Source: Octopus vulgaris
Lineage: Eukaryota
NCBI GenBank assembly: GCA_951406725.2
Contig: OX597838.1
Coordinates: 19,220,001-19,284,000, forward strand
Direction: 5' to 3'
Length of the DNA: 64,000 bases
Position numbers: made by a program. Below are positions 33,440 to 45,400 of the stretch, in pieces. The stretch's first letter is position 1; every line of letters begins with the position of its first letter.

Positions 33440-36400
33440 GTATAAATACTCACACATACACAAAGATCTGATTCCCTCTGTCTTTCTTAAAAATCTCTTG
33501 AGATTGTCTGCGTACAATAATTAATTGAATCTCTGTGATAAGAACTTCTTAATTACTTCATTAAGGCAATGTTGTGTATACACTTTAATTGTACCAAGCC
33601 TATGCATTCTAGTCACGTACTCCCCCACTTTGTTTTAAACCAAAGAGTAACGCTCTAGTCAATTATTTTGGTTTTATAAATCCTCCATAGCTTTACTTCA
33701 ACCATAAAAGTCACTATATTATATTTGAAAACAAAATTCTGCATTTACTTAAAAACAGATCCTCCCCCCACAATTCAAAAACGAAGTATTATTGAATACT
33801 ATTATTAGTAAATATCAAGTGATTTAATATCCTTAAGAAAATCCATATTATAATTTGTCATGTTCATTTCCCCTTGAAAATCCAGGACCCTTTTGTCCAA
33901 TGTAATATCCTTATCACTGTTGTCTTCCTGAAAAGGAAGGGAGATAAATGTTTTTTTATGTTCCCTTTGAAATTTGTAAAATCAAATTTTCCCTAAGATA
34001 TATTAGCTACACTTTACTTATGTAGTACTCCTCTTTTTAGGTATAATTAGTCTTAGACGGGTTAAGTATGGATAATTCAAAATAGCTCAGAATATTCTGA
34101 TATTCTAATTTGTTTGTGTGCATTTAGAATTGTGGAGATTGAATTTGAAGTCATTTAATTAAACTGTAAGATAATTTTTACAAAAGAAAAGAAGCATCAT
34201 CATCATGTTAATTAACACTTAGAATATAACGACATACTTTAGATGCTCGACACTAACAAGGCTGCAGGTCTTAGTTGTAGCATTGTGTCAGATTTTAGTG
34301 AGGCTCTTGTGTTTGGAAAAGTGTGTTTGTCTGTGTAACTAAGTAGGAGATATGCAGATGGCTGAAGAGAAGAAGGTGTCCGGAAACCATGCAAGTTTGG
34401 AGAACTTACAGCAAGTACCACTGTCACAGAAAAGTGTTGAGCAGATCATTACATTTCCTTGGAGTCGTGACCATTCGTTGAGCTGCTACCATGGCTTGGA
34501 CCAGAATGTCAAACCTGGAGAATACGTCCTTCTCACACTCTTCATGGAGTTCTGTTCAATTACTGAACACAAGATCGAACAAGTCCTTGCTGAACCACTT
34601 AAAAACCATTTTTCTAAATCTCTACAAAGAAATGAGGACCCCCAGTTTGACCAGCTGCTTGCCTCCCTCGGCTGTGTGGCTGAACAAGGCCTGCCATCTC
34701 TCCTGCATTCCTTTCTTAAATGGTATGAAAAACAGTCACTTGTTGACAACAGTCACCTCCTTGATCGTTACCGTATACGAAATAAAGGAGAAAAAAACTT
34801 CCTGTGCGAGCGCCGTGAACTGGCTGTTGATTATGTTTATTGTTTGGTGCTGATTGAGATCTTACCGAAACTCTCATACCACCCAGGCCATGATGAACTT
34901 GTCACATGCATTATCAACCAGGGGTTCCGGCATTTCAAGTACAAAGATGGTTTACAGGCAAATCCAAATGCTGGCAATATCAAACTGATTTCTAGTCTGT
35001 ATGCAGAGGTGATCGGTGTTCTAGCCCAGTCTCGGTTCCCACCGATTCACAAGACTTTTCTCAATGAGCTGAAAGAACTGAAGCTCCGTGACCAAACACC
35101 ATTCACGGCACAAAGTGTTATTAGCCTGTTGATGGGCCTGAAGTTCTTCCGTGTCAAAATGCACCCAATTGAAGATTTTGAAATGTGTGTCCAGTTCCTG
35201 CATGAGTTGGGTCAGTATTTTCTCGAAGTAAAAGACCGGGATATCAAACATGCCTTAGCCATGTTGCTTGTGGAAATCCTACTGCCTGTTGCTGCCCAAG
35301 CAAAAAATGAGGTAAACGTCCCAGTTTTGAAGAATTTTGTCGAGATGCTCTACTCAACCACCATTGATATGACCACGAAAAAGAAACACACTCTTCATTT
35401 ATTCCCTCTGGTCACGTGTCTGTTGTGTGTTAGCCACAAACAATTCTTCCTTAGTAACTGGCCATACTTTCTCACAATGTGTTTGTCTCAGTTAAAGAAC
35501 AAAGAAGCAAAGATGTCACGTGTTGCCCTTGAATCTCTCTACCGCTTGCTCTGGGTCTACATGGTGCGGATTAAATGTGAAAGTAATACAGCCACCAGGA
35601 GTCGACTTCAAAGCATTGTGAACAGTCTCTTTCCAAAAGGCTCAAAGATGGTAACACCACGCGACACACCGCTTAATATTTTTGTCAAGATCATTCAATT
35701 TATTGCTAAAGAAAGACTGGATTTTGCTATGAAAGAAATAATTTTTGACTTACTCTGTGTTGGAAGACCAATCAAATTCTTGACACCAGAAAGAATGAGT
35801 ATTGGTTTGAGAGCCTTCCTAGTTATTGCCGACAGCTTACAGCAGAAGGATGGTGATCCTCCGATGCCTCAGTCTGCAGCAACATTACCTTCTGGCAGTA
35901 CAGTCCGTATCAAGAGAACATTTTTGAACAAAATGCTGAGTGAGGAGACAGCCAAGGACATTGGTCTATCATGCTACTATCCTCACATCCTGAAAACCTT
36001 TGATTCAATCCTTCGTGCTTTGGATGTGCAAGTAGGTCGTCCATTATTACAGACAAACTCTGAAAACACGGGGAAAGAAGTTGACGAACTCATCACCAGC
36101 GACCGTAAACCTAAAATCGACTTATTCCGCACATGCATAGCTGCAATTCCCCGCTTGATACCCGAAAACATGTCAAGCCAAGAACTTGTCGAACTGCTTA
36201 CCCGTCTGACAGTACACATCGATGATGAATTAAGAGGTTTAGCATTTCAAGCTTTGCAGAACCTGATGCACGAATCTCAAACTTTCAAAGAACAGGTCAT
36301 TCGAGGTTTTGTGCAGTTTATTCAGCGTGATGTCAGCGACACAGCATCTCAGCCACTGGACGGTGTTCTCCGTATGTTAGTGCAGCTGCTAGTCCAGTGG

Positions 36401-42400: not shown

Positions 42401-45400
42401 TTCATGCATATCCTTGACACGCTGTTTTCCCAGATGGAATGTCCGTATGTGTTTGTCCAACCAGAGTCTCTGTTGGAGAACAGTATTATTGACCGACATA
42501 AGTTCTGTGTCCTGGAAATTCAGGAGTGTTTAGAAATGCTAAGCATGCGACTCACTCAAGCCGAACAGTGTCTCGAGACAATGAAGTCCATGGCATTTCT
42601 CGAGCCTCTAAATGAAGGTGCAGCCTCGGCCGATGCGAGGAATTCCAGTATTGATGACCAGAAGGGGGAGATGTGTCGACAGCTCTACAAACTGCTTTTC
42701 CAGCTGGTGTTACTCTTCGAAAGTTTCATTAAGGTCGTCGATATCTTCCAGAACCTGACTTTGACCGGCCAAGCTTTAGACATGTCCAGCCAACTGGCAA
42801 CGATAAAGCAGGAGCTTGCTGCCAGCCTGTCGGAGCTTCAGACCGGTCACACGTCACCATTGTACTTTGATACGCAAATCACACCAAAGCAGGAGGCCAT
42901 TGCATATCTGCTGGAGTACCTGCAAGGAAAGCAACATCTTAGTACTCTGCAGCTCTTGCGGATGTTCCGATACCAGTGGCCATCAGACGTCTTTGGAACA
43001 ACCGAAGATGATGACATCATAGCTTTACTAAACATTTATTGCAGCTGCGTTGCCCAGACGACAGGCATATTTGTGCTTATACATCCAGAACCGGACTTTG
43101 GCCAAGTGTATAGCTTACTGATGGAAGTAAACAGTCTTTTGTCTTCCAGATGGCCTCATTTAGTATGTCACATTCACAGAAATGAAATTAGTATTAAACC
43201 ATCAGATTCTAGTACATTCTAGAAAACATTATTTTAAACATTTCTTCAAAAACACATACACAAACACACATCCCACAAAAAACAAAACAAAAAAACAAAA
43301 ACAAACTTGAATCCATTTTTACAGGTAAACCAAATGAAACAGTCATTAAAAAATTCATTTTTTTAATTTAAAAATATATTAACAAGACATTGTTTTTAAT
43401 TTTAAATTCAATAAAAGATTTAACATGTGAAAAGAATTTTAAATAATGTAAAATAATTAAAAATCTAAATACATAATAAATTAAAAAAAAAAGAAGTGAA
43501 ACTGTTGTGAATCTCAATGAGATGTGGTTTGGGATTGAAACCTGAACCTTTGAGACCAAACTGAACTGAATATCTTTGTACCTTTTTGACTCTGAACAAC
43601 TGCTGCTTAATGCATTTATTGAAGATATAAAAGTTTACCAAAATGATTTATCATCACCGTGTTTTCAACAGTTTTATGTGTTTATATTTTTTCATCATCA
43701 ACATCATCATCAATGTCATCATCATTATCGCCATCATTCATAGATTTACATCCATTTTCCATATTGGCATGGCTTGGGCAGTCATGTCTGCTCTCCTGAA
43801 TGGGTCAAGGGACTACCTCTCATTCATGGGTTTTATTTTTGGTTCGGTTTCTTCAGCTCGGTATATATGCTTCCTAGTGCCGTCCACTTTACACAGGAGT
43901 ACTGGGTGCATTTCATTTTGTGGTACTAACACCAGAAAAATTATTGTCTCTTCAATAAGCCTAAAGCTCCTTGCAACCCTACACTTATACAGAGTAGACT
44001 AGGCACATTTTTTTGTGGCATCAGCATGAGAAAGACTAGGAGTGAGAGAATGATGGCTAGCAAGAGGTAAGAGTGAGTGATGGCTGTCAATGTCAAATGG
44101 CAAGTTGAGTGTGTAAGTAGAGTTTGTGAGGCATGTTCATGTCTAATGAGATCCCTTAAGTATTTTTCTCAAGATGGTGAGAGAGTTAATGGGATATGGA
44201 CCAGGCTCAAGGTTTAGTGGCTAGCGATCTACACATACTGGGCGCCACTGCATAGTGCCAAGGACTCCAAGTTTGCCATCAAGATGTAGGACAAGATACT
44301 GTGATAGCCTGGGCTTCAGAGGCCCACAACTCTTCAATATCCTCCCGAAGAACCTGAGAGACCTGCATGGGGTGGATGCAGATGTCTTTAAAATAAAACT
44401 GGATCTCTTCCTGTCAGGTGTCCCAGATGAACCAACTTCACCGCAGGAGGTGCAGATGAGGGCAGCTGCATCGAACTCTCTCATGCACCAAATGGCAATT
44501 GCTAAAAAGCATTCGTGAAGTAAAATCATGTAGCAACACCAAATGATGGCGGTGCCCCAGCATTGCCATAGCTCGTGAGCTGAAACTAGATAAAATTTAA
44601 GAAAAAAAAATTTAACACAAACACATAAATACACACACATACACATGAATAAATTGACTGCTATCTTTAGTTACATCAGCAGCAAAATAGAGTGTGAATG
44701 ATCAAGAGGTGAGCAATGGGAGTATGGGCGATAAAACAAGGGTGATAGAGACTGGAGAAGATAATAGGGAGACAAGAGATAGGTGTGTTACAGAGACGAG
44801 AAGCTGCCAAGGACCCCAAAAACATAGATACACATGTATTCATCATCATCGTCGTTTAACGTCCGTTCTCCATGCTAGCATGGGTATTCATATATATGTA
44901 AATCTGAAGTTATAAACTGATATTCTCTCTTTTACTTATTTCAGTCATTTGGCTGGAGCACCACCTTTAGTCGAGCAAATTGACCCCAGGACTTATTCTT
45001 TGTAAGCCTAGTACTTATTATATCGGTCTCTTTTGCTGAAAAGCTAAGTTACGAGGACATAATCACACCAGCATCGGTTGTCAAGCAATGCTAGAGGGAC
45101 AAACACAGACACACAAACACATCCACATATATATATACATATATACGACAGGCTTCTTTTAGTTTCCGTCTACCAAATCCACTCACAAGGCATTGGTCGG
45201 CCCGAGGCTATAGTAGAAGACACTTGCCCAAGGTGCCACGCAGTGGGACTGAACCCGGAACCATGTGGTTGGTAAGCAAGCTACTTACCACACAGCCATT
45301 CCTGCAAATCTGAAGTTATAAACCGATATTCGCTCTTTTACTTGTTTCAGTCATTTGACTGCGGCCATACTGGAGCACCACCTTTACTCGAGCAAATCGA

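What the first reader, a model, noticed from the sequence alone, without database searches (positions are those of the whole stretch)
34352..43222. Entire 2956-aa Furry orthologue encoded in a single 8.9-kb exon
Seen: one uninterrupted ORF with Furry motifs from N- to C-terminus and no TE insertion, in a window where LENG1 (789-nt CDS) has 6 introns and TIMM10 has an 8.4-kb intron. Established: vertebrate FRY/FRYL have dozens of coding exons and Drosophila fry is also multi-exon. Inference: either an exceptionally long functional retrogene or wholesale cDNA-mediated intron loss in place. A likely intron in the 5'UTR only (donor 24998, acceptor 33059) fits both recruitment of a new UTR exon and 3'-biased intron loss. 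An A-rich tract at 43277-43305 might be a decayed poly(A).
Basis: partly seen in the sequence, partly recalled or inferred. Interest (0 to 1): 0.8.

Follow-up and report, generated by a model that had tools for sequence, protein, structure and literature searches.

The report
Full-length Furry gene without coding introns
A complete 2956-codon Furry gene lies in one uninterrupted exon of an otherwise intron-rich, repeat-rich animal genome, which points to an origin through a reverse-transcribed mRNA: a known kind of event, but an unusually large one.

Summary
Window 34352-43222 (+) is one ATG-to-stop frame of 2956 codons with no internal stop, against about 155 expected. Pfam finds all four Furry domains in order, from profile position 1 of the N-terminal domain to near the end of Fry_C. 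The coding signature is continuous. No listed dispersed repeat lies inside the ORF, although repeats fill the rest of the window. The neighbours do have introns: a Tim10 gene with an 8,434-nt intron and a Cir_N (LENG1-like) internal exon.

How the intronless state arose is not settled. The A-rich tract 55 nt after the stop is uncommon (6 such loci in the window). It has no poly(A) signal at the right distance and no target-site duplication. The proposed 5'UTR donor and acceptor are each the only such strong motif on the + strand, but there is no transcript evidence.

I favour a functional retrogene (0.45) over in-place cDNA-mediated intron loss (0.3). No eukaryotic genome collection was available, so a paralogue, synteny, mollusc exon structures and dN/dS stay unchecked. 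This is a new member of a known kind and of moderate interest.

The parts
34352..43222 (+). Complete Furry (Fry/MOR2-PAG1 family) coding sequence: 2956 codons plus TAG, in a single uninterrupted exon.
34340..34342 (+). In-frame TAA three codons upstream of the start ATG. It rules out an N-terminal extension within this exon.
   Evidence: the stop-to-stop frame begins at 34343.
34345..34346 (+). Possible alternative 3' splice site (…ctaag tAG|gagat ATG) 5 nt before the ATG. Motif only.
   Evidence: Read. No transcript evidence.
36677..36762 (+). CAY/CAR-rich repeat inside the CDS that encodes a His/Gln-rich low-complexity tract (about residues 776-805). It is in frame and is not an intron.
   Evidence: (family D2).
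43272..43306 (+). Candidate decayed poly(A), unproven.
   Evidence: 2 A/C-only loci of at least 29 nt in the window; 6 A-rich loci.
43410..43480 (+). First canonical AATAAA signals downstream of the stop (43410-43415, 43475-43480). ATTAAA is also present at 43345, 43456 and 43480. This is the likely present-day polyadenylation region.
24996..25003 (+). Candidate 5'UTR donor AG|GTAAGT (exon end at 24998). It is the only AGGTAAGT on the + strand of the window.
33044..33059 (+). Candidate 5'UTR acceptor TCTCTCTCTTTCACAG|. It is the only Y12NCAG on the + strand of the window.
2666..2876 (-). Neighbour: Tim10/DDP-family gene, second coding exon. The acceptor AG is at 2877-2878. An AATAAA follows the stop at 2655-2660.
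11311..11384 (-). Neighbour: Tim10-family first coding exon (ATG at 11384-11382, donor GT at 11310-11309). The intron to the second exon is 8,434 nt.
   Evidence: Too short for a Pfam hit on its own.
51064..51165 (+). Neighbour: internal 102-nt exon that encodes the first 28 of 37 Cir_N profile positions (LENG1-like), with AG and GTAAGT borders.

Best explanation
This is the intact, full-length Furry gene of an intron-rich, repeat-rich invertebrate genome. Furry is the large scaffold that binds and activates NDR-family kinases such as Tricornered. All 2956 codons lie in one exon.

The intronless coding region was most likely made through an RNA intermediate. A fully spliced fry mRNA of more than 9 kb was reverse-transcribed in the germ line and inserted here. 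It was then kept by selection as a working gene, either replacing the multi-exon parent (an 'orphan' or replacement retrogene) or standing beside it.

On this reading the A-rich tract 55 nt after the stop is the worn remnant of the mRNA's poly(A) tail. The gene now ends at AATAAA or ATTAAA signals 120-260 nt downstream of the stop. It is probably driven from recruited upstream sequence through one or more non-coding 5' exons.

Shown: ORF, domain content, completeness, continuity of coding signal, absence of repeats, introns in the neighbours.

Inferred: RNA-mediated origin (about 0.8), present function under selection (about 0.85), retroposition to a new site rather than loss in place (0.45 against 0.3), and the 5'UTR intron.
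For: - Full-length ORF with 0 internal stops against 155.5 expected.
- Four Furry Pfam domains in order, with both ends covered.
- Coding signature in 37 of 38 windows, with 1 tie.
- No copy of any listed dispersed repeat between about 32.15 and 44.9 kb, although copies lie throughout the rest of the window.
- Neighbouring genes are split by introns of 8.4 kb and more, so the genome does not lack introns.
- Fly fry is multi-exon even in its 3' part, and mouse Fry has several 5' exons (passages of PMC2868802 and PMC6881260).
- The A-rich tract begins about 50 nt after the stop. Only 3 other such tracts lie on the + strand in 64 kb. By my arithmetic, one falling within 100 nt of the stop by chance is roughly 0.5%. 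Recombination with a cDNA in place would not be expected to bring in a poly(A) tail (inference).
- If the tract (5 C among 29 positions) is a decayed tail, comparable neutral decay over 8.9 kb would have broken the frame many times. The intact ORF therefore implies purifying selection (inference).
- Precedent: amphioxus SYCP1, a single coding exon of about 3.2 kb that replaced a multi-exon parent (abstract and passages of PMC5803294).
- Strong donor and acceptor motifs, each unique on the + strand, lie upstream in the right order.
Against: - No target-site duplication. The only flank-to-flank matches are low-complexity A-rich or CA-rich words, and the 13-nt exact match at 43252 lies before the A tract, not after it.
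- No AATAAA or ATTAAA lies 10-35 nt before the A tract. A 55-nt 3'UTR would be short for a 9-kb mRNA.
- 3'UTRs are A/T-rich anyway, and the tract is flanked by CA-rich low complexity of a kind common in this window.
- LINE-type retroposition usually truncates the 5' end (passages of PMC5470649). A full-length copy of more than 9 kb would therefore be exceptional.
- No parent gene, synteny or transcript data could be examined.
Confidence: 0.45

Rival explanations
1. Intron loss in place. The gene never moved. One or several rounds of recombination between the chromosomal fry locus and reverse-transcribed spliced fry mRNA erased every coding intron, and only intron(s) in the 5'UTR were left.
For: - No target-site duplication and no poly(A) signal before the A tract, as expected if nothing was inserted.
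- A candidate intron survives only in the 5'UTR, which fits the 3'-biased loss known for this mechanism (established knowledge, recalled).
- The gene is full-length including its 5' end, which 5'-truncating retroposition rarely achieves.
Against: - Erasing what are probably dozens of introns (count recalled for vertebrates, not tested for molluscs) without leaving one in 8.9 kb needs either one conversion tract across a very large locus or many successive events.
- The A-rich tract right after the stop is not explained by this route.
- The 5'UTR intron is a motif match only.
Confidence: 0.3
2. Old, widely shared state. The fry CDS has been intronless across cephalopods, molluscs or more widely, whatever the original mechanism, so this window shows nothing specific to the lineage.
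For: - Target-site duplications and a clean poly(A) are absent, which is consistent with great age.
- I could not inspect any mollusc fry gene. The literature searches were silent either way.
Against: - Fly and mouse genes are multi-exon, so the bilaterian ancestor very probably had introns.
- No positive evidence for a wide distribution.
Confidence: 0.15
3. A recent, unexpressed processed copy (retropseudogene in waiting) whose frame is still open only because it is young. The working multi-exon fry lies elsewhere.
For: Intronless, with an A-rich tract after the stop. No transcript data are available.
Against: - A young copy should keep a clean poly(A), a poly(A) signal and target-site duplications. 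None of these is seen.
- 8.9 kb is free of repeats in a window packed with them.
- All domains score strongly.
Confidence: 0.07
4. Assembly artefact: cDNA or transcript-derived sequence merged into the genomic assembly.
For: None specific. An intronless giant CDS is what such contamination would look like.
Against: - The window has no N or gap.
- The ORF runs without a break into ordinary genomic flanks: an (AT)n microsatellite 0.9 kb upstream, and TE-like sequence and SINE-like copies downstream.
- There is no clean poly(A) end.
Confidence: 0.03

Closest known systems
Amphioxus SYCP1 retrogene replacement (Garstang and Ferrier 2018, PMC5803294; abstract and passages read)
   Same: [quoted passage not shown]
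   Different: The coding exon here is about 2.8 times longer (8.9 kb against about 3.2 kb). For amphioxus, loss of the parent, transcription and a co-opted bidirectional promoter were shown. None of these could be tested here.
Human 'orphan' retrogenes, and Sowah replacement in tetrapods (Ciomborowska 2013, Carelli 2016 and Maeso 2012, as cited in passages of PMC5470649 and PMC5803294)
   Same: An intronless copy that takes over from a lost intron-bearing parent, and that is conserved under selection.
   Different: Those cases rest on synteny and outgroup comparison, which are missing here. I recall that such retrogenes are mostly far shorter, with TAF1L (about 5.5 kb CDS) among the longest. 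No call tested this.
Reverse-transcriptase-mediated intron loss in place (the Fink model; recalled, no paper read here)
   Same: Precise removal of introns from the coding region, with 5' introns spared.
   Different: Reported events usually remove one or a few adjacent introns. Here every coding intron of a gene of about 3000 codons would be gone.
Drosophila furry / vertebrate FRY and FRYL (PMC2868802 and PMC6881260, passages read)
   Same: Same protein family and domain order, and similar size (2956 aa here, 3479 aa in the fly). The fly protein binds and is needed for the NDR kinase Tricornered.
   Different: The fly and mouse genes are interrupted by introns, and this one is not. The protein here carries a His/Gln-rich insert at about residues 776-805.

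Membership tests
Furry (Fry / MOR2 / PAG1 / Tao3) protein family | N-terminal MOR2-PAG1_N domain (the most conserved part of the family, and the part that binds the kinase in the fly) | tested here: met
   PF14222, residues 153-683, profile 1-558/559, E 4.4e-156, 521.5 bits (cut-off 27). Its role in the fly comes from passages of PMC2868802.
Furry (Fry / MOR2 / PAG1 / Tao3) protein family | Central and C-terminal MOR2-PAG1 domains in the same order | tested here: met
   PF14228 (5 stretches, E 5.3e-39) and PF14225 (residues 2052-2303, profile 2-252/252, E 5.2e-65).
Furry (Fry / MOR2 / PAG1 / Tao3) protein family | Fry_C tail (described by Pfam as 'Furry protein C-terminal') reaching the end of the protein | tested here: met
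   PF19421, E 5.9e-81, best stretch 2623-2928 of 2956, profile 364-667/696.
Furry (Fry / MOR2 / PAG1 / Tao3) protein family | Binds and activates an NDR/Tricornered-type kinase | not testable with these tools
   No kinase partner lies in the window, and no complex job was sent.
Retrogene (retroposed, processed gene copy) | Intronless coding region where relatives have introns | tested here: met
   Searches show one exon here. Fly and mouse introns come from passages of PMC2868802 and PMC6881260. No mollusc relative could be examined.
Retrogene (retroposed, processed gene copy) | Poly(A) remnant at the 3' end, following a poly(A) signal | tested here: inconclusive
   An A-rich tract lies at 43272-43306, but no AATAAA or ATTAAA lies 10-35 nt before it.
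Retrogene (retroposed, processed gene copy) | Target-site duplications flanking the insert | tested here: not met
   among the 20 of 31 families shown for 32800-43800, only low-complexity matches join the two flanks. Old inserts lose these duplications, so this lowers the claim without excluding it.
Retrogene (retroposed, processed gene copy) | A locus different from that of the intron-bearing parent or of orthologues | not testable with these tools
Reverse-transcriptase-mediated intron loss in place | Same neighbours as intron-bearing orthologues in outgroups | not testable with these tools
   No outgroup genomes are available.
Reverse-transcriptase-mediated intron loss in place | Surviving intron(s) at the 5' end only | tested here: inconclusive
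   Donor 24996-25003 and acceptor 33044-33059 are each unique on the + strand. These are motif matches without transcript support.

The most novel reading that the evidence does not exclude
This is a replacement retrogene of record length. A spliced mRNA of more than 9 kb for an essential NDR-kinase scaffold was copied end to end by a germ-line reverse transcriptase, landed between unrelated genes, acquired a new promoter and non-coding 5' exon, and displaced the ancestral multi-exon fry in a cephalopod lineage. A regulator of neuronal and epithelial morphogenesis was thereby moved into a wholly new regulatory landscape.
Probability: 0.3. Interest if true: 0.7.

Novelty: new member of a known kind. 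Interest (0 to 1): 0.5.

Why it matters
Complete loss of coding introns from a conserved gene of about 3000 codons is rare.

If it came by retroposition, it would set an upper bound well above the usual size of functional retrogenes. It would also say something about how far the reverse transcriptases active in this lineage can copy an mRNA.

If it came by recombination in place, it would be an extreme case of wholesale intron erasure in an animal that otherwise keeps long introns.

Either way, a Furry gene freed from splicing and possibly from its ancestral regulatory surroundings is a natural experiment on a key regulator of cell and neurite shape. It also gives a clean single-exon template for cloning a protein whose size makes it hard to study; a passage of PMC2868802 makes that point about the Fry proteins' very large size.

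Tried and rejected
1. A script for A-tract counts, poly(A) signals, upstream ATGs and target-site duplications failed because the script machine was lost. I redid the same questions with the DNA search and the repeat finder. I counted the upstream ATGs by eye (about 17), and that count is not machine-checked.

2. Hidden in-frame intron: rejected.
- Coding signal is continuous.
- AGGTAAGT and Y12NCAG have no + strand match inside the ORF.
- At 0.053 stops per codon, a non-coding stretch of 200 nt would stay open with a probability of about 0.03 (my arithmetic).

3. Upstream coding exon: unlikely.
- The in-frame TAA lies three codons before the ATG.
- The N-terminal domain starts at profile position 1.
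- A splice into the 9 nt between them cannot be excluded.

4. Solved structures by sequence: 0 hits.

5. Rfam over the whole window: 0 families at gathering score.

6. Pfam on the ESS2-like tail (844-1326), on two LENG1-like downstream pieces (52976-53212, 56069-56623), on the Glu-rich ORF 15850-16593 and on four TE-like ORFs gave nothing at or above the curated cut-offs. The names ESS2 and LENG1 therefore stay unverified.

7. Literature:
- 'furry' + 'intronless': 2 of 2 papers irrelevant by listing.
- 'retrogene' + 'cephalopod': 16 papers, 15 listed, none on Furry.
- 'intron loss' + 'octopus': 13 papers, none on Furry by listing. In PMC6408891 the only hit was in the reference list.
- 'protein furry' + 'octopus': 0.
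- Two searches for a vertebrate exon count and passages of PMC8354587, PMC3759375 and PMC6881260 gave no total.

8. Not attempted because closed or absent: homologue searches in the protein databases, metagenome and viral collections, and any eukaryotic genome. The prokaryote, phage, plasmid and E. coli collections were not used, because they cannot bear on an animal gene.

9. No structure, complex or atlas job was sent, because none would bear on gene structure.

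
Full report
**The observation**

Window 34352-43222 (+) is a single ATG-to-TAG frame of 2956 codons. It is the only ATG ORF of at least 150 aa between 30 and 46 kb. An in-frame TAA sits three codons upstream of the ATG.

This is far beyond chance.
- The frame holds only its terminal stop.
- The other five frames of the same DNA hold 114-201 stops.
- 200 shuffles of the ORF give 155.5 in-frame stops on average and never fewer than 129.
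- The longest of 5640 other stop-to-stop frames in the window is 247 codons.

The window has no N. I do not take it for human. It looks like a repeat-rich invertebrate genome.

**What it encodes**

Pfam finds the whole Furry architecture in order.
- MOR2-PAG1_N: residues 153-683, profile 1-558 of 559, E 4e-156.
- MOR2-PAG1_mid: five stretches, E 5e-39.
- MOR2-PAG1_C: residues 2052-2303, profile 2-252 of 252, E 5e-65.
- Fry_C: best stretch 2623-2928 of 2956, profile 364-667 of 696, E 6e-81.

Both ends of the protein are therefore present. The two best-covered domains align without room for an inserted segment. No solved structure matches by sequence.

From passages of PMC2868802, Drosophila Fry has 3479 aa. 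It is most conserved over an N-terminal region of more than 600 aa, and an N-terminal 1637-aa fragment that includes this region suffices to bind the NDR kinase Tricornered, whose function requires Fry. The protein here is expected to work the same way. That is an inference from family membership and was not tested.

**Is it really one exon?**

- In 38 windows of 450 nt along the ORF, first-position GC exceeds second-position GC in 37 and ties in 1. Both off-frames carry stops in every window. No stretch looks non-coding.
- At 0.053 stops per codon, a non-coding insert of 200 nt would remain open about 3% of the time (my arithmetic). Only very short introns could hide, and the neighbours' introns are kilobases long.
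- The strong splice consensus words AGGTAAGT and Y12NCAG do not occur on the + strand inside the ORF.
- A His/Gln-rich low-complexity insert is encoded at 36677-36762. It is in frame and repeat-like, not intron-like.
- An upstream coding exon could only splice into the 9 nt between the TAA and the ATG. An AG does lie there at 34345-34346, so this cannot be fully excluded. The N-terminal domain begins at profile position 1 after 152 residues, and nothing appears to be missing.

**Context**

The window is packed with dispersed SINE-like and other repeat families, with copies from 0.3 to 63 kb. Among the 20 direct families shown (of 33) and the 25 inverted pairs shown (of 202), none has a copy between about 32,154 and 44,914. 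A finer search of 32.8-43.8 kb found only short low-complexity matches among the 20 families shown of 31. The ORF therefore sits in a repeat-free island, as expected for sequence under selection.

The neighbours do have introns.
- A Tim10/DDP-family exon at 2666-2876 (-) covers only profile positions 16-63 of 64.
- Its first exon (ATG at 11384, ending AAC AG|gtcagt at 11311) lies 8,434 nt upstream, and the frame continues across canonical GT and AG borders.
- A 102-nt internal exon at 51064-51165 (+) encodes Cir_N profile positions 1-28 of 37, between a canonical AG and GTAAGT.

As a result the exact names (TIMM10 rather than another small Tim; LENG1 rather than another Cir_N protein), the count of six LENG1 introns and the ESS2 call are not verified. 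The ESS2-like tail and two LENG1-like pieces gave no Pfam hit.

**Retrogene hallmarks**

A review (PMC5470649, passages) lists these hallmarks: an intronless copy, a poly(A) remnant, target-site duplications and frequent 5' truncation.

- Poly(A). An A/C-only tract runs 43272-43306. Tracts with at least 17 A in 20 occur at 6 loci, 4 of them on the + strand. One starting about 50 nt after the stop is therefore unlikely by position alone, roughly 0.5% by my arithmetic. However, 3'UTRs are A/T-rich and the tract is embedded in CA-rich low complexity.
- Poly(A) signal. There is no AATAAA or ATTAAA between the stop and the tract. The nearest is ATTAAA at 43193, inside the CDS. The next signals are at 43345, 43410, 43456, 43475 and 43480.
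- Target-site duplication. None was found.
- 5' truncation. The copy is not 5'-truncated.

So one hallmark is clearly met, one is ambiguous, one is not met, and the locus test cannot be run.

**The 5'UTR intron**

AG|GTAAGT at 24996-25003 and TCTCTCTCTTTCACAG| at 33044-33059 exist as described. Each is the only such site on the + strand, and they lie upstream of the ORF in the right order. By my arithmetic that arrangement has a chance of about 0.08. Total counts are no higher than shuffles give.

A leader from 33060 to the ATG would be 1.29 kb long, with an (AT)n microsatellite and about 17 upstream ATGs (my count by eye). That is awkward for translation. A further intron ending at 34346, or a nearer start site, is possible. 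Only transcript data can settle this.

**Mechanism**

Fly fry has introns even in its 3' part (5 exons and 4 introns in one 3' fragment). Mouse Fry has at least exons 1-3 followed by downstream exons. The ancestral gene very probably had introns, and their clean absence here points to an RNA intermediate (about 0.8).

I favour retroposition with retention as a working gene (0.45). The A tract abuts the 3' end, and there is a documented precedent in amphioxus SYCP1. Recombination with cDNA in place (0.3) fits the absent duplications and the full-length 5' end. It has to erase every coding intron and does not explain the A tract.

The other readings and my weights for them are:
- an old state shared across molluscs (0.15);
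- a young unused copy (0.07);
- an assembly artefact (0.03).

If the A tract is a decayed tail, the same amount of neutral decay would have destroyed an 8.9-kb frame. The intact ORF therefore argues for selection (inference).

**What is known and what is new**

Retrogene replacement and 'orphan' retrogenes are established. I found nothing in print on an intronless Furry gene or on Furry in octopus. Genome annotations are not papers and could not be consulted.

The size stands out. The amphioxus case is about 3.2 kb. From memory, the longest well-known mammalian retrogene CDS, TAF1L, is about 5.5 kb.

I class the finding as a new member of a known kind, with interest 0.5. It would rise if outgroups show a recent, lineage-specific event with loss of the parent. 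It would fall if fry is intronless across molluscs.

**Left unchecked**

- A paralogue elsewhere in the genome.
- Synteny.
- Exon structure in other molluscs.
- dN/dS.
- Transcripts.
- Vertebrate exon totals.

Noticed in passing
window 15850-16593 (+): A 247-codon open frame with a long poly-Glu run and a charged coiled-coil-like tail. It is the longest frame in the window after Furry. It has no Pfam family at the curated cut-off and may be an exon of an unannotated neighbour.
   Followed up: partly
window 63234-63999 (+), open at the window end: Tandem units of about 126-132 nt (family D11, 4 copies, 62-100% identity to the reference copy) that stay open in frame and encode a repeated Lys/Asn/Pro-rich motif. 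This could be a repetitive protein exon or a minisatellite.
   Followed up: no
window 27610-27852 and 55268-55510 (also 31911-32153): Two copies of a 243-nt element are 98% identical (family D16), which suggests recent transposition in this genome. Several SINE-like families have 9-11 copies in 64 kb.
   Followed up: no
window 43690-44600 (+): TE-like sequence directly downstream of the Furry 3' region. It includes a 97-codon frame (44225-44518) with no Pfam hit and its own A-rich end near 44600. It limits how far the Furry 3'UTR can extend.
   Followed up: partly
window 24750-25400 and 26000-26700: A very CT-rich tract flanks the candidate 5' donor: a (CT)n run at about 24770-24800 just upstream, and CT-rich low complexity from about 25040 just downstream (GC skew -0.30 for 24-26 kb). 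A microsatellite block of about 0.6 kb, mainly (AT)n, follows at 26.0-26.7 kb (GC 0.27 for 26-28 kb).
   Followed up: no
window 52105-52754 (+): Three tandem copies of a 214-218-nt unit (family D18, 65-100% identity to the reference copy) lie inside what would be an intron of the Cir_N gene.
   Followed up: no
window 36677-36762 (Furry residues about 776-805): A His/Gln-rich low-complexity insert encoded by CAY/CAR repeats lies between the N-terminal and central Furry domains. It is possibly lineage-specific.
   Followed up: no
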